Source: a virus (Duplodnaviria; Caudoviricetes). From it: a stretch of DNA of 64,000 bases. A program made the translations under genes and the position numbers. The notes beneath the pieces are model-generated. The model searched no databases. It was not told where the DNA came from and worked only from the letters and a program-made list of their open reading frames with translations. Of the stretch, positions 33,347 to 59,595 are shown in pieces (within the stretch, counting starts at the first letter, position 1; the number at the start of each line of letters is the position of its first letter). The stretch lies in the IMG/VR virus record IMGVR_UViG_3300014204_000110. One strand, 5' to 3'.

Positions 33347-34321
33347 TTATCCTATTTCTTTAATATCATTTATAGTTGGACCATAACCAAACCATGATAT
33401 TTTTGAGATGTTATTTAATCTAGAATAAAATTCATTACAATTATCTTTATTAAGATAATTAATAAAATTCATAAATACATTAGTTACACCATTCATTAAA
33501 CAAGATTCTTTATATTGTTCAATAGAAAAAGAAAATAATCTTCTTACTTTTTTACTAATAGTTGTTAATTCTGGTACTTGCTTAATATCATTCCAGGTTA
33601 TTTCATGTTGGTCTTGATAATATGGTCCTGAATAACCAATCATATTACCTATATTATCAAAATGATTAGCAACTCTAATTGGATAAGTACGCATACAAGC
33701 TATAATTTTATCGACCCATTGAATAGGAATTCCTGCATCAGCTAATCCTTGTTGTGGACTTGTATTACGGCTAGTACAATAAGGATAAAATCCATGATTT
33801 AGTGATAATGAATGTCCTTGTGGTATTGCTAATTGAATATGTTTACATGATTTTAACAATTCAAACCAATTTCTTGCACTAATTGTAAATTCTGGTAATA
33901 TTTTATTAGCAGTATTTATATTTTTAGGATCTCTATTTATTTTTTGAATAATAGAAGTACTAGTACCTCTCATAGTAGATCCTATTTGTATTAAATTCTT
34001 TTCTTTTTCTATATTATTTTCAGTTATTATTGTTGCATTTTCATGAATTAGAATTTTTGCATCTTTAGGAAGAAGTGCTTGCTCTTTCCAAAAATCAGTT
34101 ATATTAATGATTGATCCTGGTGATAATAAATGTAAACATGGTGCATTAGTAGCAAATGTTGTCCATTTATTACCATTTGAATCAAAACCTCCAGAATTTG
34201 GACCAAAATTACTTACAATTGTATCTGGATTATATTTATGAAAATAATATTCATTAAAAAGTCGTTTACCTTCACTACCATATTGTCCACCAAAAATTAT
34301 ATCTACCTTTGGATTATTCAT
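33347..34321 (-). CDS. purZ: adenylosuccinate-synthetase family protein, PurZ-like
   Basis: GGQYGSEGK (Ser at PurA Asp13), IGST..G, QG.SL..NHGFYPYCTSR, RTYPIRVAN, SGP, ELTT..K..RR. Confidence 0.75.
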   Translation of the reverse strand: MNNPKVDIIFGGQYGSEGKRLFNEYYFHKYNPDTIVSNFGPNSGGFDSNGNKWTTFATNAPCLHLLSPGSIINITDFWKEQALLPKDAKILIHENATIITENNIEKEKNLIQIGSTMRGTSTSIIQKINRDPKNINTANKILPEFTISARNWFELLKSCKHIQLAIPQGHSLSLNHGFYPYCTSRNTSPQQGLADAGIPIQWVDKIIACMRTYPIRVANHFDNIGNMIGYSGPYYQDQHEITWNDIKQVPELTTISKKVRRLFSFSIEQYKESCLMNGVTNVFMNFINYLNKDNCNEFYSRLNNISKISWFGYGPTINDIKEIG

Positions 34322-34322: not shown

Positions 34323-35816
34323 TTATCCTATATCATAATTTTCAATAGTTTTAACTAAATTATTTTCACCTTGTTCTACAACTGAAATATAATCAAGTAC
34401 TTTATCACTCCATCCAGCTATAAGATTGACGTTATTACCAATTACTTTTATACTTCCATGCCCAGCTAGATCTATTGAATGAATCCACATGTTTTTATTT
34501 TTAGTTTTGAGCTGAGATGCATATCTTTGAGTATCTGAAGTTCTATAATCATAAGAGCTATCATTATAACATTGCATATCTGAAAATATAATAACTCTAT
34601 CAATAGGTTCATTTAAACTGTTAAGTACTTTAAACGCTTCATGAAGATTAGTACTATGACCTACTCCAGAATGCTCTAGTTTAGAAATATTATCAAATAT
34701 ACTTGCTTTTGTTGAAAGATGTATAATTTTAGCAGTTTCTCCAAATGGAACAGCTATAGAGTTATCACAAAATTTAACTGCTGCTGATGCTAAAAGATTA
34801 CCAATTTGTCTCATTTGAACAATACTATCTTTTGAAATAGTACTATCCATACTACCACTTTCATCAGTTATAATAGCAGTAGTTCCAGATAATTTAGGAA
34901 GATTTTCAAATGAAATCAATAGTGCATCTTCAATAGTATCTAGAACTTTTGTACATCTAGTTTTACCAAGAGTTTCAACCATTTTATAAGCAGAGAAAAA
35001 TCTAAATGGAAGTTGTTTAGATTTACGTACTTCTTCTGGATTCTTAAGTATGTTGCATACTTTATCTAGATGAATGTCTGAAATATTATTTTCAAGCATA
35101 TTTTTAAGATTACGTAAAAGCATCATATATCCAGCTTTACTATCTATAATCTCTTCCCATACTTTTTTACTTTGACCTTTTTCTGAAAGTATTGTTTCTC
35201 TTGTTTTAGGAGTTTTAAGACGATCTTCTATAAGACGTTTCCAAAGATCAGCTTGTTCCTGATCTTTAGGTTTTGGTCGACATAAAAGTAATGCGTCTTT
35301 AAGCTTTACAGTGCTTTTAGAGCCTTTGTATCGTGAGAGGCTATATTCATCAAACTTTGGAAATACATCTGCTATACCTCTTCGTAAGCTTCTAGGAATA
35401 GGATTAACTTGTCTTTTACCTAAAGATAGATGATAAGCTAAGATATTAGTAATATCATCAACTCGTTCAATGATTTTACTGATCATTTTACGAACAATTC
35501 TATTACCTTTAGCACCTTTTGCTACTTCTGCGGCAAGTACATGAGATACACTACGCATATGAAATTCATTACGTGCGTAACAAGCAAGTCGTGCTACAAA
35601 TTCAGGATCTTCAGATATAACTCTACGTGCTACTGAAATAAGTTCTGAAGTATTATCTCCATAAAATTTAGGTTCATTAATGAAACTGGTGAGTACTTCT
35701 GTTACGAGTTTTTCTTTATCTTTAAGATCATAAGCGAGTCCACCAGCTTTATTTATTGTTTTTCTAGTAGTAATTGTTGATCTACCAGTACTAACTGCTT
35801 TTGTATTTGCTTTCAT
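34323..35816 (-). CDS. rsr: TROVE-vWA protein, Ro60/Rsr ortholog
   Basis: NKAGGLAY, E.KFY, YAR....RS, FDEY.L.RY, MLLRNL, QLPFRFFSAY, DESGSM, IFSDMQ, GWSD. Confidence 0.92.
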   Translation of the reverse strand: MKANTKAVSTGRSTITTRKTINKAGGLAYDLKDKEKLVTEVLTSFINEPKFYGDNTSELISVARRVISEDPEFVARLACYARNEFHMRSVSHVLAAEVAKGAKGNRIVRKMISKIIERVDDITNILAYHLSLGKRQVNPIPRSLRRGIADVFPKFDEYSLSRYKGSKSTVKLKDALLLCRPKPKDQEQADLWKRLIEDRLKTPKTRETILSEKGQSKKVWEEIIDSKAGYMMLLRNLKNMLENNISDIHLDKVCNILKNPEEVRKSKQLPFRFFSAYKMVETLGKTRCTKVLDTIEDALLISFENLPKLSGTTAIITDESGSMDSTISKDSIVQMRQIGNLLASAAVKFCDNSIAVPFGETAKIIHLSTKASIFDNISKLEHSGVGHSTNLHEAFKVLNSLNEPIDRVIIFSDMQCYNDSSYDYRTSDTQRYASQLKTKNKNMWIHSIDLAGHGSIKVIGNNVNLIAGWSDKVLDYISVVEQGENNLVKTIENYDIG

Positions 35817-36133: not shown

Positions 36134-36196
36134 TAGCGGAAAAATCGATAAATGTATTTTTTTCACACAAGAAGTAACATTTATCAGCATCCGCTA
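36134..36196 (-). ncRNA. Y-RNA-like element 1 (minimal scaffold)
   Basis: UAGCGGA-UGCU-GAUAAAUGU-UACUUC...ACAUUUAUC-GAUUUU-UCCGCUA. Confidence 0.7.
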
Positions 36197-36203
36197 AAGT
36201 TAT

Positions 36204-36310
36204 ACAATAGTAATAAGAATCGAACTTACCTTTACGATACGTCTATCGATTAGTCTTCCAATAGGACTAGTCCTCGTGAGACCATGTTCCCCAGATCATC
36301 ATACTATTGT
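36204..36310 (-). ncRNA. tRNA-like RNA with expanded central region
   Basis: 9-bp closing stem ACAAUAGUA/UACUAUUGU, T arm GUAAG-UUCGAUU-CUUAU, three internal hairpins. Confidence 0.55.
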
Positions 36311-36316
36311 TTGTTA

Positions 36317-36436
36317 TAATAATATAGCGTGTTATTACACCAAAAAACTACCATTCAGATTAGCTTTATTTCAGCCACTCGCTTTTCATTTACTCATTAA
36401 AGATGCTCTACTATTAAGGCTACTACTATATTATTA
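36317..36436 (-). ncRNA. putative structured ncRNA inside the Y-RNA array
   Basis: 11-bp closing stem UAAUAAUAUAG/CUAUAUUAUUA; no ORF. Confidence 0.4.
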
Positions 36437-36447
36437 AAGTTAAAAAA

Positions 36448-36574
36448 TAAACGGTAAAAGCATTTTTAGTATTTTACGTGCTCTAACCAACTGAGCTATC
36501 TATTAGAATCTAATAGAAAAGGACTCGAACCTTTGACATCGTCATATGAAGTAACTAAAAATAACAACCGTTTA
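36448..36574 (-). ncRNA. YrlA-like Y RNA 2 (circularly permuted tRNA domain)
   Basis: scaffold plus T arm AAAGGUUCGAGUCCUUU, capped acceptor hairpin UCUAUUAGAUUCUAAUAGA, then D arm UAGCUCAGUUGGUUAGAGCA. Confidence 0.85.
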
Positions 36575-36583
36575 ATATATAAA

Positions 36584-36677
36584 AATGAGAAAATCTATTA
36601 AAGTTATGGCCCATGCCGTATAAGAAAAATCTTATACTTAGAATCGAACTAAGAAGTAGCTCTAATATACACTCATT
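36584..36677 (-). ncRNA. YrlA-like Y RNA 3 (compact permuted tRNA domain)
   Basis: scaffold plus T arm CUUAGUUCGAUUCUAAG, hairpin UAUAAGA-UUUU-UCUUAUA, reduced D arm GGCAUGGGCC. Confidence 0.75.
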
Positions 36678-36690
36678 ATAATTTACAAAA

Positions 36691-36771
36691 AGTGGGAAAA
36701 TTTAAAAGTCTTGGTAAGTTTCCTTACCTTCTGATATGTATAGTAGAAGTAAGACTTTTTAAACACCCACT
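36691..36771 (-). ncRNA. Y-RNA-like element 4
   Basis: AGUGGG-UGUU-UAAAAAGUCU-UACUUC...AGACUUUU-AAAUUUU-CCCACU with GGUAAG/CUUACC hairpin payload. Confidence 0.7.
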
Positions 36772-36779
36772 AAATTAAA

Positions 36780-36915
36780 TAAGATCGACAAAAATTATAG
36801 CAGTCTTTTTATACGGTCGCCTTACCACTTGGCTATAGATAACAAGTTATCTAGTAAGATTCGAACTTACGGTAACTGTTCCAATGGAAGTATCTGCTAA
36901 AAACATCCGACCTTA
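36780..36915 (-). ncRNA. YrlA-like Y RNA 5 (circularly permuted tRNA domain)
   Basis: scaffold plus T arm GUAAGUUCGAAUCUUAC, hairpin UAGAUAACUUGUUAUCUA, D arm UAGCCAAGUGGUAAGGCG. Confidence 0.85.
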
Positions 36916-36918
36916 AAG

Positions 36919-37323
36919 TTACTGTTTTGATTTGAAATGCAATTCTCTATGACAATTTGCACATAAAATTATACATTTATCTATTTCTTCTAATATTTTT
37001 GTCTTTGAACATCTTCCCATCATTGATACTTCAAAATCTTTATTAGCTGGATCTACATGATGAAAATCTAACACATACCATCTATCATCTCTGCAGTTTT
37101 TACAAGATAAAGTTTTCTTTAAGTCAATATACCACTCTCGTATTCCATTTTCGTATGTCTTTCTTGTATTTTTTTCTTCTATTTTATGATCTTGATAATA
37201 TTTTAGTCTTCTTTTAGTTGAACAGTCAATACAGTACGGTTGTAGTACTGTTTTGGTTTTTAATTTTCTTTTCCAAAATTTATCATCATCTAAATGTCTA
37301 TTACATTTTTTGCAATATTTCAT
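36919..37323 (-). CDS. free-standing HNH endonuclease
   Basis: CKKC..CIDC..CKNC...LDFHHVDP..K...E.DKC..LCANCHR; AGGAGGT RBS. Confidence 0.85.
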   Translation of the reverse strand: MKYCKKCNRHLDDDKFWKRKLKTKTVLQPYCIDCSTKRRLKYYQDHKIEEKNTRKTYENGIREWYIDLKKTLSCKNCRDDRWYVLDFHHVDPANKDFEVSMMGRCSKTKILEEIDKCIILCANCHRELHFKSKQ

Positions 37324-37391
37324 AGTGACCTCCTATATTTAGTATAGGCTGTCATTTATATTTTTGATTGACAATCAAGTGCATTAACCAA

Positions 37392-37667
37392 CTATGCTAA
37401 TATATCATTAAAGTATCCGTTTTCAAAATCATTCAATAAATGTACACCATTAGTAAAATTATATTTAAAATCTGTAGATTTTACATATTCAAGAAAAAGT
37501 GGTTGTTCAGTAACAGAAAAACCATCATAACTACCATTTTTAAATATAACGCTTATTGCAGTACCAAGTCCATCAAAGTCTGGATATTCGTCATAAACGT
37601 ATCCTAGAGTATTTATTGGATTTGCTAGACAAAGTACTTTAAGTTTTACTATATCTCCAATTTTCAT
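37392..37667 (-). CDS. hypothetical phage protein
   Basis: MKIGDIVK...G.VY.EY....SVIF.NG.YDGFS; AAGGA RBS. Confidence 0.55.
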   Translation of the reverse strand: MKIGDIVKLKVLCLANPINTLGYVYDEYPDFDGLGTAISVIFKNGSYDGFSVTEQPLFLEYVKSTDFKYNFTNGVHLLNDFENGYFNDILA

Positions 37668-37689
37668 AAAAATCCTTAAATAAATTATA

Positions 37690-37812
37690 ATATAATGAAA
37701 AAAGCTAGAACAGAGATTGTCGGCTATACGACTTTAAGTATTACTTAAAGCTCTGAATTTCACGTTTATACAAATTATAAAAGAAGTAACTGTTCTAAAA
37801 CATCCATTATAT
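37690..37812 (-). ncRNA. Y-RNA-like element 6 (multi-hairpin payload)
   Basis: AUAUAAUGGA-UGUU-UUAGAACAGU-UACUUC...CUGUUCUAG-CUUUUUU-CAUUAUAU. Confidence 0.7.
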
Positions 37813-37836: not shown

Positions 37837-38196
37837 CTATGTAATATTTATCTTTTCCCATAAAAATGGTATATAAGTTGCTCTTATTCCAACATTACCT
37901 AGAACATTAAGCATTGCTGCTGCTCCAATATTATTAGCAGTATGAATAAATATCTTGTCTGGAGCATGTTCTGGATTATTTGCTATCCAATTAGCAACTT
38001 CATATCCAGTACCTTCACCAGGTACATCAAAAGTATCACCAAGATCATGATCTAACATGAGATAATCATACTTATTATTTTTAAGAAGATCTATTGCTTC
38101 TTTAGGTATGTCTGTAAAAGTTACATTACAATCAATAAGACGCTTTTTAAATTGAAATATACGTTCAGCATTATCTTCAAGTATTAGTATTTTCAT
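37837..38196 (-). CDS. cyclic-phosphate-processing receiver-domain protein
   Basis: ILILEDN..R, LMLDHDLGD, GTGYEVA.WI, IHTAN..GA..M. Confidence 0.75.
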   Translation of the reverse strand: MKILILEDNAERIFQFKKRLIDCNVTFTDIPKEAIDLLKNNKYDYLMLDHDLGDTFDVPGEGTGYEVANWIANNPEHAPDKIFIHTANNIGAAAMLNVLGNVGIRATYIPFLWEKINIT

Positions 38197-47575: not shown

Positions 47576-48062
47576 ATATTTTTCTTATTAATGCTATAAT
47601 AATATGAACGCTTCCAAAAAACAATATCATAATATTTAGAATTATTAATTTATATATATTTATACAAAGTTTATTTATAAAATTTCCAATATTACTACCT
47701 AGATTGTCACAAAATTCAACTGAACGATCAAATTTAGCTTTATCAGAATTAGTAAACATTACTTTTCCTTTGGATAGTTATGAGTTCCTGGAGTAAATTT
47801 TGGTATTTTAGAAGTATCACCAAGTACACGAACGTAATCTCTTGTTATATCAAAAGATATTATAAGATCAAACTTTTTACCTTTTCTACTTTTATATTCT
47901 ACATCAATCCAATAACCTTTAAAAGTTCCTGTTTCTGACCATTGTTTAGTTATAACAATACGATCAGGATCTTGAGTTTTTCCTTCTTTTAGATTATTAC
48001 CAATTACTTTATAAACGTATTTTGTACATTCTGGTATTGTAAGTTTCATAAGATTTTCTATA

Positions 48063-48135
48063 ACTCCTGTAATGGATTTGAACCATTGATGATAGTTTTG
48101 CAGACTATAGACTTAGGCCACTTGTCTAACAGGAG
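48063..48135 (-). tRNA. tRNA-Cys(GCA)
   Basis: CTCCTGT/ACAGGAG, ATAGT-CTGCAAA-ACTAT, AATGG-TTCAAAT-CCATT, U73. Confidence 0.9.
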
Positions 48136-48141
48136 ATGTTA

Positions 48142-48252
48142 AATATTTAGTAAAACGTAGCTTACTCAAGGCTACTGGCTTAACTTATATTTATATATCT
48201 ATAAATATCATGTATGCTTATGTACATCATATAGAGTATTTTACTAAATATT
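48142..48252 (-). ncRNA. putative four-way-junction RNA immediately 5' of tRNA-Cys
   Basis: 14-bp closing stem AATATTTAGTAAAA/TTTTACTAAATATT enclosing three hairpins. Confidence 0.4.
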
Positions 48253-48662
48253 ATATTCTGAGATTGCTGGAATTTTGGTATTTTTCATAAATGACATAGT
48301 AACTCCATTTGATACTGGTCTTGTAGATTGAACTTTTGCTTCAATAAATGTACATACTTTTACTGGACTTGAAAGTTGAAACATTTCAGCACTTTTTGCT
48401 ATTACACTATCAAATGAAGAACAAATAGATCTTGGAAGATATTCTTTAATTTCAAATGGTTTGAAATATTTAATATCAATTGTATTAAGAGCATCTGTTT
48501 TACGTTTAGATGAGTCTCTACCAGTTTTACGACAGAAGTTATCATTTAAATGTGTAATTGAAAATCCTACCAGAAGTCTGTCATCTGGAGTTTTTTTGAT
48601 ACAATAACTATGAGCCAATGTATCTTTATTATCTTCTCTTACATGAAAATACAGTTCATCTT

Positions 48663-49076
48663 TCATTTTGTCTCCTTTTGAGTATTAGTTAATATGTTTA
48701 AATCTTGTGTACTTGCTGTTATAATACTAGAATTTATTAACTGCTTTAATCTAGCATGATTATATGTTCTATCTATTGCTTGTTTACTATCTTCTTTTTT
48801 AATTATATTATTATCAATAATAACATAGTTATATTTAATTATGTATATATTTCTAATTGTATCATTTATTTTAAATCCTAATGGAAGAATACAAGCTATA
48901 GCTATAAATAAACTTGCTACTCCAGATACTAACCATTTTGTAAGTTTATAATAATATAATTCTTCACCTTCAAGTTGTTTAGCTACTTTAAGTTTTTCAA
49001 GTTCAAGTATTTTATCTTCTGAAAGGTATTTATATGCATTTTTATCTTCTTTATTATGTCTAAGATTTAAGTTCAT
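48663..49076 (-). CDS. membrane protein with N-terminal NLR-like tag
   Basis: starts MNLNLRHN; one TM segment. Confidence 0.55.
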   Translation of the reverse strand: MNLNLRHNKEDKNAYKYLSEDKILELEKLKVAKQLEGEELYYYKLTKWLVSGVASLFIAIACILPLGFKINDTIRNIYIIKYNYVIIDNNIIKKEDSKQAIDRTYNHARLKQLINSSIITASTQDLNILTNTQKETK

Positions 49077-49624
49077 AAAAGCTCAATTGGTTTAAAGATT
49101 GTATTAGTTTTAAAAGTTTTTATAAACTCAGTTTTTATTGTAAAAGTATAACCTTTTCCAATGCAACCAAAAAGACCATAACTTTTCCAATCACAAATTC
49201 CAGAATTAGTTTTAGCTTTAAGTTTTGTATTACATTCATATGGATTTGTACTATGTCCTCCACAAAGTGGACATACAAACTTACCACTTGGAAATTTAAG
49301 TTTAAAATCTTCAAGAGTTTCAAATATTGCTATATTATCTATTCTTGGAAAGTTAGCTCTTTGATAATAATTTAAAGACCAATATGTTCGGTTACTTTCA
49401 AGTGCATCTAGAATAATATTTTTATCTATTCCTGTATGATGACTATAATGAGATATTAAACCATTAACGAATTTTATTAATTTTAAAGATTCTTTTTGTT
49501 CGTAAAATTGTACTTTATGATATTTTAAATTTGAACGAAAAGCATCTTTTCTTATTTGACTTAAAAGTTCTTTTGTTGTTTTCATAATGTTATAAATTTT
49601 GGTATAAAACCACCTTGAGTACAA
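49073..49624 (-). CDS. conserved phage zinc-finger protein
   Basis: [17 protein letters not shown]...[16 protein letters not shown]...[10 protein letters not shown]. Confidence 0.65.
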
Positions 49625-50256
49625 CCAGGAACTGGAATAAGATTATCACCTTTAACGTCTACGTTGTTTAACTTAGACATATTTTGATACCAAGTTTTTT
49701 TATATTCTTCTGATATTTTACCAAGTTCAACTAGAATATGATACCCACCACGAGTTTGAAGAACATTAAGACAATCTTTATTAATACAATCAAGTTTTAT
49801 ATCTTCAAGTTTAATGTTATCAAAATCGAAATCTATAAAGATTTTACGACTACAAGCTTTATGTATTTCACTTAAAACTTCTTGTTGTGGATTATATCCA
49901 CCATAAGGTTTAGAAATAAGCTCTGCAAGCTTTACTAGGCTTTTCTGAGCAGCCTTCTCTAGACTACGAGGGTTTGGATTGATATACAATACAAGAGCTT
50001 CTTGAGGTATTATGTTATGTTTCTGAAAGTATCGTCCTTTAGGTATCTCAAGCTGAGATATCTTTTCATATAAAAATTCTTTTGTAGAAGTGAATCTTTT
50101 AAGTTGAGATTTATCACTTTTTACATAAGAAACTGTTTGACAATACTTTTTACGTGCAAAGAGACAACAATAAAAGACTTCTCCATGCTGTAACTCTGGA
50201 AGCCAGTCTATGAAATCTTTAAAAAGTGGTTCATCTAGAATAATTTTGTAATTCAT
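49582..50256 (-). CDS. AEP (primase-polymerase) superfamily protein
   Basis: [24 protein letters not shown]; start corrected to MNYKII after GAGGA RBS. Confidence 0.65.
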
Positions 50257-50280
50257 AATATCCTCAAAAAAATTAAAAAT

Positions 50281-50313
50281 AAAAATGGGTAAGACCATTG
50301 CTGATCTTACCCA
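50281..50313 (-). terminator. intrinsic terminator
   Basis: UGGGUAAGAUCA-GCAA-UGGUCUUACCCA followed by U tract. Confidence 0.8.
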
Positions 50314-50320
50314 CACCGCG

Positions 50321-50515
50321 ACAGAACACATTCTATGGATCAATCACTGTACTGGATTTCTACAGTTTATTATAGGATTAGGCCCTTACCTGGAATCATC
50401 GTATTTTGACCAGTTATCTTCCTAACTTTAGTTTATACCTTTATAGCAACCATTACAACTACATACGATCTATTGTATTATCCACTATAAAAACATAAAC
50501 AACCTATTGTCCTGT
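50321..50515 (-). ncRNA. putative 195-nt multibranched RNA ahead of the terminator
   Basis: ACAGGACA/UGUUCUGU closing stem, AUCGUAU/AUACGAU, CUGUA/UACAG; no credible ORF. Confidence 0.45.
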
Positions 50516-50824
50516 GAAAGGTCATTCTCTATAAATTTTACCATTTTTATCATACCAAGTATATAAAGTACTTGATCTAAATAAATGAGTTAAGAAATCA
50601 TTATCATCTACTAAACCAAGTATAAATTTAGTAGTTATGTATTTTCCAGTATATGGATCATGTATTTTGTTTACCATAAACGCATTATACTTTAATTTTT
50701 TACCAATGTATATTGGTATTTTACTTCTAGAGATAAACTTCTTTTTAAGTCGGTTCATTCTTATAGGAAACATTAACCATTTGATAAATTTATTCATTAT
50801 TTTTACCTTTATTAGTTTAAATAA

Positions 50825-50904
50825 TAGGAGATAAAGGAATCGAACCTTTTTCGCATTTTCACGCCTTATAAGAGCGTCGGAGATTACCAACCTCCACATC
50901 TCCT
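50825..50904 (-). tRNA. atypical tRNA with UAU anticodon (Ile)
   Basis: AGGAGAT/ATCTCCT, D stem GGAG/CTCC, ACGCT-CTTATAA-GGCGT, AAAGG-TTCGATT-CCTTT. Confidence 0.7.
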
Positions 50905-50931
50905 TTAAAATCAATTAGTTATATTAATTTA

Positions 50932-51016
50932 CAGAAGGTATAGGATTTGAACCTATGGAAGATTACTCTCCGCTACGTTAGCAGTGTAGTGCCTTAAACC
51001 TCTCGGCCAACCTTCT
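50932..51016 (-). tRNA. tRNA-Ser(GCT)
   Basis: AGAAGGT/ACCTTCT, CTACA-CTGCTAA-CGTAG, long variable arm, G73. Confidence 0.9.
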
Positions 51017-51546
51017 ATTTAAATATCTTTTTAATTACTTCTTTATTTTTAAATGACTTACATTTATAACAACTTTCTTTTGTATCTAATAATGGAGAAG
51101 CTTCTTTAATCACAAGAGATAAAAGAATATTAAGGCAATCATCACTTAAGTTTTTATATACTGAACGTTTCCATCTAGAAAGTATGTTTTGTTCTAACGT
51201 TTTTACGTTCATTATTTAACTTTCTGAAGAATATCATCAACAGATTTTCTAAGCAGATATTTGAAATCATCTCTGATAGTAGCATTAGACATTAAATTTT
51301 TAATATCAGTTCCCATTTCAGTAAGTAATTTATTTACAAGTTTTTGAGCAAGTTCTTCTTCGATAAGTTCTTTGATACGAGCAAATACTTTAGCTCTATC
51401 AATAGTCGCATATACATGTTTTAGTTCTTGAGAAATGTCTATACGATTATTATAATCTATTTTAAAAGTTTCACCACTTTGAATAAGTTTAATTATAGCA
51501 TTTTCAATGCTTTGTTCTATTCTAGATGTATCTATCATAAAATCCC

Positions 51547-52611
51547 TTATCTAATTGTACTTAAAGTCATATATTCTGGAAAATTTCTTGATATAAATTT
51601 AATACTATTAAAGTAATCTAAATTTTTAGATAATATTAAACATCCATGTCCAATTAAATTAACTGAAAAATTAGACGCGTTGTTATCTGGAATTATGTTT
51701 ATTATTTCATTAAATTCTTCAACATATCCACATGGAATATATTTATCTGTTATATATCCAGAATCAGTATAAATATGTCCATGTATTATATAATTAACGT
51801 TTTTATAATAATTATATAATCTAATTTGAACTGCTGTATCTACACTTGGTTTATTAAATCCACTAAAAAATACTTTATCTTCAAGTAATTGTACTGGTAC
51901 AAAACCTGTAGAATCTAAAGTTTCTTTATTAATATTTCTTTGTGATACAAATATCATATCATTTAGTTTATAACTTGGAAATCCAAACATACATCGAGTA
52001 GATATATTACCTAAAAATCGTTCTTTATTTATAACTCCATTAATTTTAGTTTTAAATATATCTCCATAACTATGTATTATATCTAAAAATTTAGGTTCTA
52101 TATTAATATTGCTATTAAAATTAACGTTAACGGATTCTACTCTAGAGAGATTAGAAATATAATTAATTAATTTTATTAACATAAGACTCATGCCTGAAAT
52201 AGTATCAGTATTAATCCATATATTTCCTAAAGTATCAAGTATTTTAAAATTGTATTCTTTTTGTTTATTTATAACAATACATAAATTTGAATGATTTTTA
52301 AACATTCGTTCAATTATTTCAAATGTTGAATATTTATCATTATCATTTCTTTTTGAAGTTACAAGCAAGCATTTTTTATTTAAAACTTTAATTTTTGGTA
52401 GATACTTATCTATCGAGTTATCTATATTTGGCATCCAAATTATAGTTTTATATTTAGAAATATTATTAATAATTTGATCTAGTATATATAATTGTCCACC
52501 ATTATAAAAATCTATATCTCTATATTGATTTTTTAATTCATTATATATACATTCACCAAAATATGAAGATTTTCCTATATTATTAAAATCTCCAGTTACT
52601 AATAATATCAT
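51547..52611 (-). CDS. class II aldolase/adducin-like domain protein
   Basis: GNISTR, KPSVDT, YIIHGH, PCG, LIGHG. Confidence 0.7.
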   Translation of the reverse strand: MILLVTGDFNNIGKSSYFGECIYNELKNQYRDIDFYNGGQLYILDQIINNISKYKTIIWMPNIDNSIDKYLPKIKVLNKKCLLVTSKRNDNDKYSTFEIIERMFKNHSNLCIVINKQKEYNFKILDTLGNIWINTDTISGMSLMLIKLINYISNLSRVESVNVNFNSNINIEPKFLDIIHSYGDIFKTKINGVINKERFLGNISTRCMFGFPSYKLNDMIFVSQRNINKETLDSTGFVPVQLLEDKVFFSGFNKPSVDTAVQIRLYNYYKNVNYIIHGHIYTDSGYITDKYIPCGYVEEFNEIINIIPDNNASNFSVNLIGHGCLILSKNLDYFNSIKFISRNFPEYMTLSTIR

Positions 52612-53768
52612 AAAGTTCCTTTTATAGATGGTAATATTGTATTTTCGTATTCTTCTGGAGATATAATATATTCGTTTTTATTATTCATTATTATTTTATA
52701 ATAATAAAACATATTATAACATGTGTGATATTTATTATAACTTATTTCTGAAATTAAATTTGTGTTAATATCAATTGTTATATCTATAACATCTTGGTTG
52801 TTATTAATAATAGTAGTACAATTTATTAATTTATTATTAAATATTATAGAAGTTTTAATATTAATTATAAACATTATCCAATACTCCAATTTATAGTATT
52901 TTTAGCCCATGAAGGTTGTCTACATTTTATATATTTATTAGTCCATTTATACCAACAAACAATTCTAGATAATGGAACTATTCCTTTAGGAACTTGTTCA
53001 ACAACTATATATTTATAATATCCTTCTTCACTTATGTCCATACAATTAGATGTTATATGTTCTTGAGCTTCTTTTAATGTATTATACCATCCTAATAATC
53101 GTATATTTGAATTTATAAAATCTAAATGAATTTTGTTTTCTTTTTTAAATAATATTGGTCTTATTGCAGTAATGAAATATTTACTTATTTGGTAATATTC
53201 TTTTATTTCTTTTTCTGTCATATTTAGTTTTATCTTTGAAAGTTTTCTCAGTTTGTTTAGGTAATGGTATTCTAAATTTTTTAATCTTATTTTTCATAAT
53301 TGATTAGTAAAATCAGGTATATTTTTCCAACACCAAATAAAAAGACATTCATTAGGATATATTTGCATTAATTTATCCCAATTATATCCATGAGCTTTAT
53401 GTAAAAGTCTTATTAACATTGTTGTATAATTATCTCTATTTCCTGAAGATAATTCTATTTTATAATCTCTTATAAAATCATCTGAAACTTCAAAGTTATA
53501 TGTATGATTATCATAAATAATTGGTCCATCATAATTAAATAATTTATTGAAATATTTAAATGTTTGTTCTGTTATGGAAAATTTCATATATTAACTTTTC
53601 TTGGTGGAGAATCTTTATGTATTTCTTGTAAGTTGAATATACATTTATCTAATTTAATAGATTGTTGTAATTGTACAAGCTGTCTAAAATATTGATCTCT
53701 TGCATCTAGATCATCTAGACACTCTAATGGAATTTTAACTGTAAGTAGATAGTTCTTTTTAAGCATAT

Positions 53769-54587
53769 TTAATCCTTGAATAGATCTTCTCTTGAGATAT
53801 TATATGGATTGTTACGTTTATACTGTGAATTTAGATGTCTATCAATAACTTTTTGTTCCATTTCATTATTTTTTTGTATATCACCTCTTAGATAACTTTT
53901 TAAAATATTATCAACTTGTTCCCAGCTATCTGCTCCAATTTGTTCTAGACTTGTATTTGATACTCCAAGTCCATCTGTTGCATCTGCATTAACACAAGCC
54001 ATAAGAGCATTAGCTTGTTTTAGATGTCCACTGTTTGTAAGATCTTCTACGAGATATTTAGCAAGTTCATAAACTTCTGTTTTCCATAGACTTTGTATTG
54101 GTCCATAATCACCAACATCACCATGTAGGGTCCAGAAACCGAGCATCAGTTCAGAATAGTTATCAGTAGAAATAACCATTCCATTATTTAATCCTGCTAT
54201 TGCATATAAATTTATCATTCTTATTCTAGCTTTTACATTACCTTTGTAAATTGTATTTCTATTATCAACATTATTTCCAAATTCTGAACGTATATCATCG
54301 TATACACCATCACAAGTTTGATCAATATCATAGCAATGAAAATTTTTACAAAAATATAATCCGATATCATTTGCTCTATGATTTTCATTAGATTTATTAC
54401 TTTTAGTTGGAAGCGAAAGTCCAATCAATGGTAAATTAAGTTCATCCATTACTGGTTTAAGTAATGCTGCACATAGTGCACTATCAATTCCTCCAGATAT
54501 TCCAAGTACAACACTTTTAAGATTATTAGAAATCATATAATTCTTAAAATTAGATCTAATATTAGATATTACTTTAGAACAATTCAT
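53769..54587 (-). CDS. nadE: NH3-dependent NAD+ synthetase
   Basis: LGISGGIDSA, GNVKARIRM, TDNYSE..LGFWTLHGD, KTEVYELA. Confidence 0.93.
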   Translation of the reverse strand: MNCSKVISNIRSNFKNYMISNNLKSVVLGISGGIDSALCAALLKPVMDELNLPLIGLSLPTKSNKSNENHRANDIGLYFCKNFHCYDIDQTCDGVYDDIRSEFGNNVDNRNTIYKGNVKARIRMINLYAIAGLNNGMVISTDNYSELMLGFWTLHGDVGDYGPIQSLWKTEVYELAKYLVEDLTNSGHLKQANALMACVNADATDGLGVSNTSLEQIGADSWEQVDNILKSYLRGDIQKNNEMEQKVIDRHLNSQYKRNNPYNISREDLFKD

Positions 54588-54589
54588 GA

Positions 54590-55786
54590 TTAATCCTTAT
54601 AGTTAAAAGCACGTTTATATGTGGTTATATCTTCTTTAGAACCTAGAAATTTACCAGGATCATCACTAAGTTTAACTGTATTATACTTATAATCATCAAT
54701 ATAAAGTGATTGTAATTTAATTACAATATTAAGTGGACTTATCAAACCGTCATTGGATGTATCTGTCCCCCATCCAAATGAACAATCAAGATTAGGATAT
54801 TGATATCTAATATCTATAATTTTATGTGTGTTTAAATTATCAGAAAACATTATTTTACTTGAAGTTTTATTATATTTTCCTAATAATTTTACAAAATGAG
54901 CTATGCTTCCACTATCTTGTCTTAAATTTATACTTTCTTTTATATTTTTAAGAAACCATTCACTTCCATATGTATCTGTAAGAAAGTAGGTATCTGGAAA
55001 GATTTTAATGTAATCGCTAACTAATTGTTTTTGTGATTCTTCTAGATAATCCGCTTGTATAATATCAATTTCATACGATTCAATATTTCTATATTGATAA
55101 TCTTTATTAAATTGATATTGAGCTAAAGCAGCATATAACATATTCATTTCATGAGCAATTGTACCAATGGCTGGTATATTATATTTATTAGCTAGAGATA
55201 TATTAGATGTTCCAATAAGCTTATCTGGAATTTCTTTGAGACATTTCTCGATGAATATTTCTTGAAATTTAATATTAGAACGTCTACGAGTGCCAAATTC
55301 TACAAAATTAATATTTCTACAACTTTTAATTAGTTTAATTTTTTCATCAGTTTTTCTTATAAAAGCTTGTTCATGTTCATTACTAAATTTTCCCATAGTT
55401 TCTAAAGTATGATTTGAGAAAACTTCATTAACGGTTGACATTATAAGTGTCTCAAAAGGTATAAGATCTGATATTTTTCCTGTATAATATAAATTATTTA
55501 TATCTTGATTCATACTTGCAGCATTACCAATATCAAGTTTTGATAGATAATCTATAAAATCTAGATCATTAAAATGTTTATATAATAGCTGAAGTTCTGA
55601 ATATTTAAATTTTAAGTTAAATAATTTATTAACTTCTTCTCTTATTTTAACATCTAGAAATTTTAAATTAATATTACCACGATTGTATAATCTATAAGTA
55701 ACAATATGATTATCTAATTTCATTTTGTATAAAAAGTATAACATTTTATACTTATACATATCACAATCAAGTAGTGAAGTTATCAT
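54590..55786 (-). CDS. pncB: nicotinate phosphoribosyltransferase
   Basis: LLDCDMYK..M, EFGTRRR, GTSN, GTIAHE, LTDTYG, RQDSG, FSDNL, FGWGT, NIVIK, KLSDDPGK. Confidence 0.92.
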   Translation of the reverse strand: MITSLLDCDMYKYKMLYFLYKMKLDNHIVTYRLYNRGNINLKFLDVKIREEVNKLFNLKFKYSELQLLYKHFNDLDFIDYLSKLDIGNAASMNQDINNLYYTGKISDLIPFETLIMSTVNEVFSNHTLETMGKFSNEHEQAFIRKTDEKIKLIKSCRNINFVEFGTRRRSNIKFQEIFIEKCLKEIPDKLIGTSNISLANKYNIPAIGTIAHEMNMLYAALAQYQFNKDYQYRNIESYEIDIIQADYLEESQKQLVSDYIKIFPDTYFLTDTYGSEWFLKNIKESINLRQDSGSIAHFVKLLGKYNKTSSKIMFSDNLNTHKIIDIRYQYPNLDCSFGWGTDTSNDGLISPLNIVIKLQSLYIDDYKYNTVKLSDDPGKFLGSKEDITTYKRAFNYKD

Positions 55787-55787
55787 A

Positions 55788-56237
55788 TTACTTACTTTCT
55801 GATAAAGTTTTAGCTACAGATAAAATCTCATCTAGATAATTATGTCTATTACAACCTTTAAGTAATAAATCCATACATTCTTTTATAAGATGATGATATT
55901 TTGGTTTTATACATTTGTATAAAAAACTATTAGCTTCTGCTTCATATAGTATTTCTTGAGATAAAGTTATATCATCTTTAATATCAGTATGTTTTGCGTT
56001 AATATGTCCTTGTTCATGAAGTCCAACTATTATATAACATAAATCCATTTTAGAATTTGTTATTTTTGTTTGATTATTATGTTCTAAATATCTTTTATAT
56101 ATTCTTTTAGTTCCAATAATTATTCTATATGTTTCATTATCATATGATCCGTAGTTAAATTTATCTTCAAAATCAAAATTGGTAATTTCAATTTTTATTG
56201 GTTCTTTAATACTTTTAGTTTGTACTAAAGCAGACAT
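55788..56237 (-). CDS. HExxH metallopeptidase-like protein
   Basis: LHEQGHI...EAEANSF. Confidence 0.6.
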   Translation of the reverse strand: MSALVQTKSIKEPIKIEITNFDFEDKFNYGSYDNETYRIIIGTKRIYKRYLEHNNQTKITNSKMDLCYIIVGLHEQGHINAKHTDIKDDITLSQEILYEAEANSFLYKCIKPKYHHLIKECMDLLLKGCNRHNYLDEILSVAKTLSESK

Positions 56238-56238
56238 A

Positions 56239-57906
56239 TTACCTCATAGATATATGTAAAATTTTATTTGCATTTATCATAAGAACTCTAACTCCATCAG
56301 TAAATAACTTTTTAGTATTATCAAATGGAGGATCTTTTACTGATTTAATTCCAGAATCTAATATTAAATCTAAACGTTCATCTTCAATTATAGCTGCTGC
56401 TACAGATTTATTAAGAACACAAAAATTAGAAGAATCATTAGGTGAAGATTGTTCTTGAGTTAGTTTATAACCATCTTTAAAAATAATCGTATTTCTATAA
56501 TATTTTGATTTATATTCAGATATTATAATAGCTATTTTAAGTGATCCACCAATGTTATAATTTGCATCAATAATACGATGATTAGTAAGTTCTTTTATAG
56601 CGATTTGTTGTATTGAATCTTTGTTTGGAATAATTAACCAAGGTACTCCAAGAACGTTTTGAACAATCATATTAGTAAAAACTTGATAGTTAGAAAATAC
56701 ATTTCCTATAAGTTTTTTAGACCAAAGAATTCCAGGAATATGAACTATTATTTTATCATCTAGAACAGTATAAATCATATTATCAAATATAAAATAATCA
56801 GTATATTCAATTTTTGTACTATATTCTTGAACAGATGAATATAATTCTCTTATTCCTAAAATATGAGGGGTTATTTCAATTATAACTGGTAAATATTCAA
56901 ATTTAATAATATCATATTTATGATTTATATAAGTATGAAATAATTTATCTTTATGTTCATATATAACTGTTTTAGTAAAACAATATATTTTACCATTAAT
57001 TACTTTTGCGTCTATGATATTTTCAGATAGTGATATAACTTCAGAAATGTTAAAACTGTTATTATTTTGAATAACATATGATGATTGAGCTGTTACTTGA
57101 ATGTTATCATTTACTTCTGGAGGAATTGATCTGTCTTTCTGTTCTAAGACTGCTTCGTACCAAGATCGTATACTAGAAGGTATATTTGATAAATTTTTAG
57201 CGTGTTTAGGTAATGTTACTTTTTTATTAAAAATTGAATAGTTTAAATCCATTAGTTTAAGTTCTTTTACTTCTCGTCTAGAAAAATCAGGATGATTACC
57301 CTGATATGGATGAATTCCAAGAAATAATTGTATAGTTACAATTGCAAATCCAAACCAATCAGTTTTATCACTAAATTGACCAAATTTTACAGTACGATCT
57401 CTTACAGTATCCATTATGGCAGTACAAGGATATCCAGAGATTTGATAACTATCGGTGTCACAGAAGTATACATTATCAAAATTTTTATTTACTAAAAACT
57501 GTAGTTCGTTATAATCACCTACAACACAAGAATGCTTATGTAATGCAATTGTTGTATCTCTCATTATATTTATAAGTTTAATAAGAGTTTTTATATCTAT
57601 ATTATTTTTTTGTTTCCATCCTTCGTTGTACATCCAGCATAGATAAATTCTATCTGAGATATAGTCCATTGAAAAACCAATATCATGATAATTTTCAACA
57701 CATATATCTCTAGGACATAATACGTTTTTATAAGGTATATTTGTTAAAGCATCTATCTTACCGATAGGAATCATTTTACTTACGTCATGATATATTTTAA
57801 AAGCAGTACTACCAGATCTATATACTTTTCCTTCACCACCTGCTGCTACAAACTCATTCTGTCCAAGATTAAATTTTTGTCTTGACTTTTTAAGAGTTAT
57901 TTGCAT
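56239..57906 (-). CDS. Ser/Thr protein kinase (TerY-P triad type)
   Basis: AGGEGKVY, AFKIY, VVGDYNELQFL, FCDTDSYQ, DWFGFA, GIHPY. Confidence 0.85.
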   Translation of the reverse strand: MQITLKKSRQKFNLGQNEFVAAGGEGKVYRSGSTAFKIYHDVSKMIPIGKIDALTNIPYKNVLCPRDICVENYHDIGFSMDYISDRIYLCWMYNEGWKQKNNIDIKTLIKLINIMRDTTIALHKHSCVVGDYNELQFLVNKNFDNVYFCDTDSYQISGYPCTAIMDTVRDRTVKFGQFSDKTDWFGFAIVTIQLFLGIHPYQGNHPDFSRREVKELKLMDLNYSIFNKKVTLPKHAKNLSNIPSSIRSWYEAVLEQKDRSIPPEVNDNIQVTAQSSYVIQNNNSFNISEVISLSENIIDAKVINGKIYCFTKTVIYEHKDKLFHTYINHKYDIIKFEYLPVIIEITPHILGIRELYSSVQEYSTKIEYTDYFIFDNMIYTVLDDKIIVHIPGILWSKKLIGNVFSNYQVFTNMIVQNVLGVPWLIIPNKDSIQQIAIKELTNHRIIDANYNIGGSLKIAIIISEYKSKYYRNTIIFKDGYKLTQEQSSPNDSSNFCVLNKSVAAAIIEDERLDLILDSGIKSVKDPPFDNTKKLFTDGVRVLMINANKILHISMR

Positions 57907-58475
57907 TAATTAATCCTATGAAGTGTTTTTCTTGTAATATCACTAGTCATTTCATCAACGTAAATTATTATATTTGAATCGATTATAAATGTATAACCAT
58001 CATCACTTTGATATATTGGTCTTGGATCATATAATGTTTTTACTTTTTTAACTGCATCTTCTTGTGTATACATTATACATGAAGTTAAAAATAAATAAAT
58101 AAATATAAGTAGATATTTCATATTATACCTCAATAATTTCTGTACAATTTTTATGTTTTTTAAATATTTCTATTAAATTTAAATATTTTTTATAATTTTC
58201 ATTTGGATATTGTTTATAACGTTCTATAAATTCTTTATCATAATTTTTATTATTACCTTTAAAATAATGTATATCTTGTTCTAAATATATTACTATTTTT
58301 GGAGAGGTATTACTAAAGGATACATTATATTGTTGTTCTCGTAATATTATATAAAATATAATATTTGTATAAAATGTTACACTTTTATTAGGATCATATA
58401 ATTCTTTCATTGTATTTATATCTGAAATTCCTATAACGTAATCTAGATCAATAATAGTTCCATCCATAAGTTTAA

Positions 58476-59225: not shown

Positions 59226-59396
59226 AATTTTTCTAACATTTTAATGTTAATTAGTCCAAGAAAAGCACCAACCACAGCATAAATTTGATGATGATTTATT
59301 TTAAGTATGTCTTCAATAATTATAAATATTAAAACCCAAGCACAAATAAAAAGAATTGAATATAAAAATTTATTCATAATTATCTTCTATTATTTG

Positions 59397-59475
59397 AGTA
59401 AACTACGCTTTGGCATCATCTATTATATCTAGAATATCAACAAATGGCTTTTACAGCCTACAAGCGTAATTTACT
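59397..59475 (-). ncRNA. putative structured RNA A between terY-like and PP2C genes
   Basis: 14-bp stem AGUAAAUUACGCUU/AAGCGUAGUUUACU, GGCU-GUAAA-AGCC hairpin. Confidence 0.45.
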
Positions 59476-59485
59476 AAAATATATG

Positions 59486-59595
59486 TACTATAGGTAGGAA
59501 AACACCTTGCTTATAATATAGATTAAATTTAAGGCATCTAGTGATTTATTATAATTGGGGTGTCATCCAATCACAGGAACTCCTACACTATAGTA
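59486..59595 (-). ncRNA. putative pseudoknotted RNA B
   Basis: UACUAUAG..GUAGGA/UCCUAC.CUAUAGUA closing stem; loop GACACC complementary to GGUGUU. Confidence 0.5.

What the first reader, a model, noticed from the sequence alone, without database searches (positions are those of the whole stretch)
36134..37812. Array of six Y-RNA-like ncRNAs: one constant scaffold, swappable payload domains, upstream of Ro60
Seen: six elements (36134-196, 36448-574, 36584-677, 36691-771, 36780-915, 37690-812) share terminal helix, UG(U/C)(U/A) opposite UUUU internal loop, roughly 9-bp helix, then invariant UACUUC. The helix sequences differ between copies but still pair, which is covariation within one genome. 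Payloads differ. Three are circularly permuted tRNAs (T arm, loop-capped acceptor stem, then D arm, with different D-arm types), one is a bare U-rich loop, one a single hairpin and one a multi-hairpin. Established: bacterial Ro60 (Rsr) binds Y RNAs, and YrlA RNAs have this permuted tRNA domain. Inference: a phage Ro60 platform with a panel of RNA adaptors or decoys, for example mimics of several tRNAs to absorb anticodon nucleases or recruit different RNases. Six diversified copies in a virus is unusual.
Basis: partly seen in the sequence, partly recalled or inferred. Interest (0 to 1): 0.82.

Follow-up and report, generated by a model that had tools for sequence, protein, structure and literature searches.

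The report
Phage Ro60 gene with six Y-RNAs
A large uncultured phage carries six small RNA genes next to its Ro60 gene that share one Ro60-docking stem but have different heads, and the same design recurs in arrays of up to eleven in many other phages, so it is an unrecognised branch of the known Ro60/Y-RNA system.

Summary
Six minus-strand elements lie within 2 kb upstream of a TROVE/Ro60 gene (34323-35816). Each has a terminal helix, a UG-containing 5' loop opposite a U-rich 3' loop, a roughly 9-bp helix and an invariant UACUUC.

- **Window evidence:** The helices differ between copies (3.7 of 9 identical) but still pair, with 2-7 compensatory changes per pair of copies. A covariance model recovers all six and nothing else in the window (E5 only at E 0.17). 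It finds no other site in the 2.36-Mb bin.
- **Wider family:** In 78 other viral Ro60 loci the model gives 170 hits, 169 of them on the Ro60 strand. UACUUC is nearly invariant and all 16 pairs covary. Copies per locus range from 1 to 11, often interleaved with tRNA genes. Six copies is therefore high but not unique.
- **Payloads:** E2 and E5 are circularly permuted tRNA-like domains of the YrlA type and E3 is a reduced one. E1, E4 and E6 are not tRNA-like. Four payload types recur in a relative whose Ro60 is 60% identical.
- **Interpretation:** A Ro60 platform with a panel of Y RNAs is supported. Absorbing anticodon nucleases is unlikely here, because no anticodon loop is present.

I class this as a new variant of a known kind. 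The scan had noted this same stretch before, in another window.

The parts
36134..36196 (-). E1: Y-RNA-like element whose payload is a bare 15-nt A/U-rich loop (YrlB-like). It is the copy nearest Ro60.
   Evidence: RNAfold z -4.93; R3 61.5 bits; parse. Its 5' motif AGCGGAUGC is close to the Rfam YrlA consensus at the same positions.
36448..36574 (-). E2: YrlA-type Y RNA. Its payload runs V hairpin, T arm, 7-bp acceptor-like stem capped by a 5-nt loop, then a D arm with a 4-bp stem.
   Evidence: Rfam RF02553 45.9 bits, E 2e-8, full length, below the gathering score of 69; R3 38.3 bits, held out of training; ARAGORN calls it a tRNA after un-permutation; counterpart L019:3343-3469, z 7.4.
36584..36677 (-). 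E3: Y-RNA-like element with a reduced tRNA-like payload: a 4-bp T arm with a UUCGAUU loop, an 8-bp hairpin, and a 3-bp mini-hairpin.
   Evidence: R3 57.5 bits; RNAfold; T arm found by script; not called a tRNA after un-permutation.
36691..36771 (-). E4: Y-RNA-like element whose payload is a single 6-bp hairpin with a GAAA loop.
   Evidence: RNAfold z -4.10; R3 50.3 bits; counterpart L019:2843-2919, z 5.7.
36780..36915 (-). E5: YrlA-type Y RNA. Its payload has a T arm, a 7-bp acceptor-like stem with a 4-nt loop, and a D arm with a 3-bp stem. H2 has one U-U mismatch.
   Evidence: R3 only 16.6 bits, E 0.17; parse 7 of 9 paired; ARAGORN calls it a tRNA after un-permutation; counterpart L019:2943-3105, z 8.3.
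37690..37812 (-). E6: Y-RNA-like element with a multi-hairpin, non-tRNA payload. It is separated from E5 by an HNH gene and a 91-aa ORF.
   Evidence: R3 27.8 bits, held out of training; RNAfold; payload motifs (GUGAAAUUCAGAGC and a hairpin with a UAUAGCC loop) shared with L019:2487-2599, 2711-2817 and 2943-3105, z 6.7-6.9.
34323..35816 (-). Ro60/Rsr orthologue (TROVE plus vWA), 497 aa: the presumed protein partner.
   Evidence: Pfam TROVE 3e-35; PDB 9KOP/9L5Y phiLo Ro60 E 1e-32; about 100 phage records hold relatives.
36919..37323 (-). HNH homing-type endonuclease gene that interrupts the array between E6 and E5.
   Evidence: PHROG 2255 HNH endonuclease 1.7e-29; blastn similarity to HNH genes of Lak and crAss-like phages.
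36202..36436 (-). Two further stem-closed modules in the E2-E1 gap that lack the UACUUC scaffold. One (36317-36436) has a 12-bp closing stem. The other (36202-36312) has a 9-bp closing stem and a T arm. Their status is unverified.
   Evidence: RNAfold closing stems, but z only -0.9 and -1.8. No tRNA call by ARAGORN even with introns allowed, and no Rfam family at E<=10. No sequence relatives in about 90 Ro60 loci.
37837..38196 (-). cREC_REC (cyclic-phosphate-processing receiver) domain protein directly upstream of E6. It marks an RNA-repair context.
   Evidence: Pfam PF20274 6.8e-18.

Best explanation
These are six Y-RNA genes of a large uncultured phage. They are probably transcribed with the neighbouring genes on the minus strand and processed like the tRNA arrays they resemble.

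Each RNA closes its ends into a stem made of H1, an asymmetric internal loop and H2, followed by the single-stranded hexamer UACUUC. This constant part is a diverged form of the Ro60-binding module of bacterial YrlA/YrlB. It most likely docks every one of the six RNAs onto the phage Ro60 encoded just downstream.

The variable heads then give Ro60 particles different partners.
- The permuted tRNA-like heads (E2, E5 and, in reduced form, E3) present an acceptor/T/D 'elbow'. This is the kind of surface that tethers PNPase and attracts tRNA enzymes in bacterial Ro60-Y RNA complexes.
- The non-tRNA heads (E1, E4, E6) would act as plain gates on Ro60 or bind other, unknown factors.

Shown here: the anatomy, the covariation, the genomic linkage to Ro60 across many phages, and the conservation of payload types. 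Inferred: Ro60 binding, the roles of the payloads, and a role in early host take-over or counter-defence.
For: - **Scaffold and covariation within the window:**
- **Match to YrlA:** E2 aligns to Rfam YrlA over the full model, with H1, the UG loop, H2 and UAC in register.
- **Ro60 next door:** Ro60 lies directly downstream on the same strand.
- **Family-wide linkage:** R3 gives 170 hits in 610 kb of other viral Ro60 loci. 169 are on the Ro60 strand and the 149 tabulated all lie beside the gene.
- **Family-wide conservation:** in 149 aligned members UACUUC is present in 145-148. Pairing is 94.9%, against 61.8% after shuffling and 41-51% after sliding. All 16 pairs show changes on both sides.
- **Breadth:** the same scaffold lies next to Ro60 in cultured phages crAss001 and Thermus phiLo and in a 634-kb phage.
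- **No stray copies:** no hit outside this array in the 2.36-Mb bin (that filtered search returned only E1, E3 and E4).
- **Payload conservation:** payload classes are shared with a 60%-identity relative.
- **Permuted tRNA geometry:** shown for E2 and E5.
- **Literature on bacteria:** bacterial Y RNAs lie within 2 kb of Rsr. [quoted passage not shown]
- **Literature on phages:** phiLo Ro60 binds Y-like RNAs and host PNPase in vitro (PMC12135203). The crAss001 TROVE gene is an early gene (PMC8375218). A Ro60-like protein of phage Bas63, encoded next to tRNA genes, counters the Ppl defence system (bioRxiv 10.1101/2024.10.10.617714).
Against: - There are no expression or binding data.
- No element reaches the Rfam YrlA gathering score.
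- The published Rsr motif GNCGAAN0-1G is matched only approximately, best in E1, E2 and E5.
- E5 scores only 16.6 bits with R3.
- UACUUC is not consistently unpaired in single-sequence minimum-energy folds of family members, so 'single-stranded' rests on the lack of any conserved partner rather than on folding.
- 25 of the 78 sources searched (24 of its 76 other Ro60 loci) had no hit at E<=0.01.
- The A7 alignment is fitted to the model, which inflates the percentage paired.
Confidence: 0.78

Rival explanations
1. Dosage rather than diversity. The six copies exist only to supply many Ro60-binding stems, as gates or sponges for Ro60, and the payloads are neutral filler.
For: About two thirds of family members (97 of 149) have short payloads with no recognisable T arm. 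E1 has only a 15-nt loop.
Against: Specific payload types are conserved between phages whose Ro60 proteins are only 60% identical (E2/K5 z 7.4, E5/K4 z 8.3, E6/K1-K2 z 6.7-6.9, E4/K3 z 5.7). tRNA geometry is kept in E2 and E5. Arrays hold different types rather than repeats of one type.
Confidence: 0.12
2. Decoys that act without Ro60. The tRNA-like and other heads soak up host tRNA-directed toxins or nucleases, and the common stem only stabilises the RNA.
For: The phage has an RNA-repair-type neighbourhood (cREC_REC, YqeY and tRNA genes). Some family members elsewhere do carry an anticodon-arm-like hairpin (L024:1759-1888).
Against: The window's tRNA-like members have no anticodon loop. The scaffold is found only beside Ro60, on its strand, in 169 of 170 hits, and it aligns to the Ro60-binding part of YrlA. 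That pattern argues for a Ro60-linked role.
Confidence: 0.07
3. Cis-acting structures or decaying tRNA-derived repeats: terminators or attenuators of the Ro60 operon, or pseudogenes with no trans function.
For: Each element ends in a stem followed by a U-rich run. The elements sit in or near tRNA arrays in 18 of 53 loci.
Against: An invariant hexamer alongside freely covarying helices across Ro60 proteins of 31-60% identity shows selection on the RNA itself. Elements lie upstream in most loci but only downstream in seven, which does not fit a leader or attenuator. The terminator scan finds none on the minus strand here.
Confidence: 0.03

Closest known systems
Bacterial and mycobacteriophage YrlA / YrlB Y RNAs bound by Rsr (Ro60) (Chen et al. 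2014, PMC4201824; Rfam RF02553)
   Same: - They are encoded within 2 kb of Ro60 on the same strand.
- The two ends form a stem with an internal loop that carries the Ro60-binding motif.
- One class has a permuted tRNA-like domain (T arm, capped acceptor-like stem, D arm), and another has a small U-rich loop.
- E2 aligns to the whole YrlA model.
   Different: - There are six copies here, and 1-11 in relatives, against the two or so Y RNAs reported per characterised bacterial species (at least two; PMC4201824).
- The 5' motif has diverged: it is (A/G)UG(U/C)(U/A) here and GUGUA in most relatives.
- A UACUUC hexamer follows H2 and is nearly invariant. The YrlA consensus shares only the UAC.
- No member reaches the Rfam gathering score.
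- Further payload classes exist, namely the E4 and E6 types.
Thermus phage phiLo Ro60 with Yrl1 and Yrl2 (PMC12135203; PDB 9KOP, 9L5Y)
   Same: It is a phage-encoded Ro60 (28% identity in the A6 alignment and 26.8% by tblastn; phmmer E 1e-32) with Y-like RNAs encoded beside it. In vitro it forms a complex with host PNPase.
   Different: The published Yrl1 and Yrl2 were picked upstream of the gene by their CGAA motifs. The elements that match the family scaffold found here lie downstream of phiLo Ro60 (L013:5549-5608 and 5738-5815) and were not described in that paper. phiLo has two copies, not six.
Metazoan Y RNAs (two to four per vertebrate species)
   Same: Several paralogous RNAs share one Ro60-binding bulged stem and differ in the loop domain, which is thought to recruit different proteins.
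   Different: Metazoan Y RNAs are Pol III genes. They have no tRNA-like module and a different binding-site sequence. They are not clustered next to the Ro60 gene in a virus.

Membership tests
Y RNA of the bacterial/phage YrlA-YrlB kind | Encoded near (within about 2 kb of) a Ro60/Rsr gene and on the same strand, the search criterion of Chen et al. 2014 | tested here: met
   All six are on the minus strand, from 318 nt (E1) to about 2.0 kb (E6) upstream of the Ro60 start at 35816.
Y RNA of the bacterial/phage YrlA-YrlB kind | The 5' and 3' ends pair into a long stem interrupted by an internal loop or bulge | tested here: met
   Seen in RNAfold minimum-energy folds of all six and in the script parse. 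Covariation supports both helices in 149 relatives.
Y RNA of the bacterial/phage YrlA-YrlB kind | Rsr-binding motif GNCGAAN0-1G on the 5' strand of the stem | tested here: inconclusive
   E1, E5 and E2 differ from the motif at 2-3 positions, and E3, E4 and E6 differ more. The UG of the motif's end is the best-conserved loop feature family-wide (U in 122 and G in 137 of 149).
Y RNA of the bacterial/phage YrlA-YrlB kind | At least one Y RNA per genome with a tRNA-like domain (T arm, capped acceptor-like stem, D arm) | tested here: met
   E2 aligns to RF02553 in all three arms. ARAGORN calls E2 and E5 tRNAs after un-permutation.
Rfam RF02553 (YrlA) | Score at or above the curated gathering threshold of 69 bits | tested here: not met
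   Only E2 matches, at 45.9 bits (E 2e-8). E1 and E3-E6 give no hit at E<=10.
Y RNA of the bacterial/phage YrlA-YrlB kind | Physical binding to Ro60, and Ro60-dependent accumulation as a discrete small RNA | not testable with these tools
   This needs RIP, EMSA or Northern blots.
Canonical tRNA | Cloverleaf in normal order with an anticodon arm, recognised by tRNA finders | tested here: not met
   ARAGORN and Rfam tRNA find five tRNAs in the window but none of E1-E6. The native-order elements are not called.

The most novel reading that the evidence does not exclude
Phage Ro60 is a hub that takes interchangeable RNA adaptors. A docking code conserved across this viral Ro60 clade (the GUGUA-type loop, the U-rich loop and the invariant single-stranded UACUUC) loads up to eleven different heads per genome. 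Each conserved head class directs the Ro60 particle to a different host enzyme or defence nuclease early in infection. On this reading UACUUC is the element read by Ro60, for example in or at its central cavity, or by a second conserved partner. The Y RNAs so far studied for phage phiLo would not be its natural ones.
Probability: 0.3. Interest if true: 0.82.

Novelty: new variant of a known kind. Interest (0 to 1): 0.66.

Why it matters
What Ro60 and Y RNAs do in bacteria is still poorly understood, and for phages almost nothing is known.

This locus and its relatives show that many phages pair Ro60 with a whole set of Y RNAs built on one scaffold. That scaffold is strict enough (UACUUC in about 97% of 149 members) to serve as a search key and as a mutagenesis target.

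It is missed by the Rfam YrlA model at its curated threshold. It is present in cultured systems, crAss001 with Bacteroides intestinalis and phiLo with Thermus thermophilus, so the docking and adaptor ideas can be tested directly.

It also links to recent evidence that a phage Ro60-like protein counters a defence system.

Tried and rejected
- **MAFFT alignments of whole elements** (A1, A2). These misplace the 3' halves because payload lengths differ. I therefore bootstrapped the model from E1 alone (R1), then three sequences (R2), then eleven (R3).
- **A simple two-helix descriptor scan**. It is not specific in this AT-rich DNA and gives many chance hits, so I did not use it as evidence.
- **tRNA with an intron in the E1-E2 gap.** ARAGORN run with introns up to 400 nt finds nothing. 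The gap as a whole folds no better than shuffles (z 0.03).
- **GTPase-centre likeness of 36317-36436.** No Rfam hit, and the bin holds no 23S rRNA to compare with. I left it as a lead.
- **UACUUC as a consistently unpaired segment.** Minimum-energy folds are inconsistent.
- **Full-text search for UACUUC**. It returned only unrelated siRNA sequences.
- **Bacterial Ro60 loci.** The one TROVE locus found in 400 genomes of the bin's phylum has no R3 or Rfam hit.
Full report
**1. What is in the sequence**

The finding lies on the minus strand of a gene-dense, AT-rich stretch in which all neighbouring genes are also on the minus strand. Immediately downstream in the direction of transcription is a 497-aa ORF (34323-35816). 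It matches Pfam TROVE at 3e-35. It also matches, over residues 24-488, the solved Ro60 of Thermus phage phiLo (9KOP/9L5Y, E 1e-32).

The window carries phage replication genes: a DNA polymerase, a Dda-like helicase, a UvsX-like recombinase and an HNH endonuclease. It also carries five tRNA genes.

Window positions 1-47799 are one 135.7-kb contig of a 2.36-Mb metagenome bin. TROVE was found in none of 17 genomes of that bin's genus and in only one of 400 other genomes of its phylum. The contig is therefore a phage that was binned with a bacterium, not part of the bacterial genome.

**2. The six elements**

RNAfold closes each of the six stretches with the same two-helix stem. A script parse gives each one this layout:
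- a terminal helix H1 of 6-10 bp;
- a 4-5-nt 5' loop containing UG;
- a 9-position helix H2 with 7-9 positions paired;
- UACUUC;
- a payload of 15-82 nt;
- the H2 partner strand, a 3' loop ending in UUUU, and the H1 partner strand.

The H2 strands are near-random relative to each other (mean 3.7 of 9 identical). Every pair of copies nevertheless shows 2-7 positions changed on both sides with pairing preserved. TACTTC occurs six times in these 1.68 kb, against 31 times on the whole minus strand.

E5, E4, E3 and E2 are separated by only 8-13 nt, like genes in a tRNA array. An HNH endonuclease gene (36919-37323), a 91-aa ORF and a tRNA-like fragment separate E6 from E5.

**3. A model-based test**

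MAFFT could not align the 3' halves of the elements. I therefore built a covariance model from E1 alone (R1). I used its three clean hits to build R2, and R2's eleven hits at E<=0.1 to build R3. Only E1, E3 and E4 of this window were in the R3 training set.

With filters off, R3 finds all six window elements and nothing else in the window above noise.

| Element | R3 score (bits) | In R3 training set |
|---|---|---|
| E1 | 61.5 | yes |
| E3 | 57.5 | yes |
| E4 | 50.3 | yes |
| E2 | 38.3 | no |
| E6 | 27.8 | no |
| E5 | 16.6 (E 0.17) | no |
| Best other window hit | 15.9 | - |

In the whole 2.36-Mb bin the filtered search returned only E1, E3 and E4, all within this array.

**4. Relation to known Y RNAs**

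Rfam's YrlA model aligns to E2 end to end (45.9 bits, E 2e-8, below the gathering score of 69). H1, the loop, H2, the T arm, the capped acceptor-like stem and the D arm are all in register. The UAC of UACUUC falls on the model's CUAC.

E1's 5' motif AGCGGAUGC differs at two positions from the model consensus GGCGAAUGC. That consensus contains the published Rsr-binding motif GNCGAAN0-1G (PMC4201824). The constant part is therefore a diverged Ro60-binding module.

ARAGORN does not call any element a tRNA in native order. E2 and E5 are called tRNAs once they are cut in the loop of the acceptor-like stem, re-joined in normal order and given the anticodon arm of the phage's own tRNA-Gly. E3 is not.

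This confirms 'circularly permuted tRNA' for E2 and E5 and 'reduced mimic' for E3. It also shows that no anticodon arm is present, because the Ro60 stem occupies its place.

**5. The same design in other phages**

- **Close relatives.** The Ro60 protein retrieved IMG/VR relatives at 41-42% identity. One has seven elements directly upstream of Ro60 and another has six. They carry UACUUCG, a UAGUGUA-type 5' loop and a U/C-rich 3' loop.
- **A wider sample.** An alignment of seven Ro60 proteins then retrieved 80 viral loci at 31-60% identity. Over 610 kb, R3 gave 170 hits at E<=0.05. 169 are on the Ro60 strand, and the 149 hits at E<=0.01 tabulated all lie beside the gene.
- **Conservation in 149 aligned members.** UACUUC is present in 145-148. 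The 5' loop reads G-U-G-N-A (U in 122, G in 137, A in 131). The last H2 pair is G-C in 138.
- **Covariation.** Pairing is 94.9%, against 61.8% after shuffling and 41-51% when partners are slid. The covariation score is 0.752 against 0.200. All 16 pairs change on both sides. This alignment is fitted to the model, so the percentage paired is somewhat flattering. The strand and position bias is independent of that.
- **Copies per locus at E<=0.01.** One copy in 19 loci, two in 12, three in 8, four in 5, five in 4, six in 2, and seven, eight and ten in one locus each. With filters off, one locus has eleven. Another has eight or nine interleaved with tRNA genes (eleven by Rfam, ten by ARAGORN).
- **Named phages.** The scaffold also lies next to Ro60 in Bacteroides phage crAss001, in a 634-kb uncultured phage and in Thermus phage phiLo.

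Six copies is thus at the high end of a common pattern, not an oddity.

**6. Payloads**

Of the 149 members, 49 have a T arm, and 27 of those also have a D arm. The other 97 have no recognisable tRNA part. Payload length runs from 11 to 159 nt.

The nearest relative, with a 60%-identical Ro60 on a 213-kb contig, has five elements.

| Window element | Counterpart in L019 | Alignment z-score |
|---|---|---|
| E2 | fifth element | 7.4 |
| E5 | fourth element | 8.3 |
| E6 | first and second elements | 6.7-6.9 |
| E4 | third element | 5.7 |

E6 shares specific motifs with its counterparts. Payload types are therefore kept by selection, which argues against mere dosage.

**7. How it most likely works**

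Shown here:
- a constant stem homologous to the Ro60-binding part of YrlA;
- tight and exclusive linkage to Ro60 genes;
- an invariant hexamer amid freely covarying helices;
- conserved and diverse heads.

From the literature:
- the tRNA-like domain is recognised by tRNA enzymes, and M. smegmatis YrlA, which has a 7-bp acceptor-like stem, is cut by RNase P and receives CCA (PMC4201824);
- phiLo Ro60 forms complexes with Y-like RNAs and host PNPase (PMC12135203);
- the crAss001 TROVE gene is expressed 0-10 min after infection (PMC8375218);
- a Ro60-like protein of phage Bas63, encoded beside tRNA genes, counters the Ppl defence system (bioRxiv 10.1101/2024.10.10.617714).

Inference:
- All six RNAs dock on the phage Ro60 through the scaffold, and the heads select partners or act as gates.
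- UACUUC is read in a sequence-specific way, most simply by Ro60 itself. No conserved pairing partner exists, and helices in this family tolerate change. Minimum-energy folds do not consistently leave it unpaired, so this step is weak.
- E2 and E5 have 7-bp acceptor-like stems and may be RNase P substrates.

**8. Limits**

I could not test cellular Ro60 loci broadly. Whether the UACUUC type is confined to viruses therefore stays open. I found no paper describing multi-copy Y-RNA arrays or the UACUUC motif. Two key reviews were not held in the library.

**9. Verdict**

This is a new variant of the known Ro60/Y-RNA system. It is one well-formed instance of a widespread family of modular Y RNAs in phages that, as far as I could find, has not been described.

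Noticed in passing
L013:5549-5608 and L013:5738-5815 (Thermus phage phiLo, MH673673.1, downstream of Ro60): Two elements with the family scaffold (H1, loop, 9-bp H2, UACUUC, CUUUCC-type 3' loop) lie just downstream of phiLo Ro60 and overlap the annotated hypothetical CDS phiLo_25. The published Yrl1 and Yrl2 were chosen upstream of the gene by CGAA motifs (PMC12135203), so the phage's natural Y RNAs may be different ones.
   Followed up: partly
L011:5487-6197 (Bacteroides phage crAss001, the unannotated 900 nt after TROVE gp96): At least three or four scaffold elements are here. One case (5660-5803) is a tRNA in normal order (Rfam tRNA 46.6 bits) whose anticodon arm is replaced by the Y scaffold closed by a GUAA hairpin. 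It is the un-permuted counterpart of YrlA. Another (5969-6050) has a T arm placed between H2 and H1.
   Followed up: partly
L024:1759-1888: This family member is permuted at a different point. Its order is capped acceptor-like stem, D arm, an anticodon-arm-like hairpin, then T arm. UUAUAUC stands in place of UACUUC. Some relatives therefore do carry an anticodon-like loop.
   Followed up: no
window 36202-36436 (-): Two stem-closed modules between E2 and E1 lack the scaffold. 36202-36312 has a 9-bp closing stem, a D-like arm, a 9-nt-loop hairpin, an extra arm and a T arm. 36317-36436 has a 12-bp closing stem and stretches that, from memory, resemble the 23S GTPase-centre helices 43/44. Folding z-scores are weak (-1.8 and -0.9), there are no Rfam hits, and there are no relatives in other Ro60 loci.
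   Followed up: partly
window 37352-37406 (-): A tRNA-like fragment with acceptor 5' strand, D arm and anticodon arm (anticodon GUC) but no T arm (Rfam tRNA 28.7 bits against a gathering score of 29). It lies between a 91-aa ORF and the HNH endonuclease gene.
   Followed up: no
window 33347-34321 (-); L012:586-1698: An adenylosuccinate-synthetase-like (PurZ-like) gene sits directly downstream of Ro60. A Vibrio phage with a Ro60 gene has an annotated '2-aminooxy adenylosuccinate synthetase' 2.3 kb upstream of its Ro60. This may be a recurrent neighbourhood.
   Followed up: no
L001:4038-4386 and L001:1402-1546: A relative with seven Y elements also encodes a tmRNA (119.5 bits). It has a partial match to OLE RNA (45.9 bits, just under the gathering score of 50) among its tRNA genes.
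   Followed up: no
window 47800-64000: The window is a composite. Positions 1-47799 are the end of contig C121, and position 48000 maps to base 160 of contig C3 of the same bin. Features that span the junction should not be trusted.
   Followed up: partly
L022:431-3422: Eight or nine Y elements alternate with tRNA genes (eleven by Rfam, ten by ARAGORN) in one array upstream of Ro60. This suggests co-transcription and shared processing with tRNAs.
   Followed up: partly
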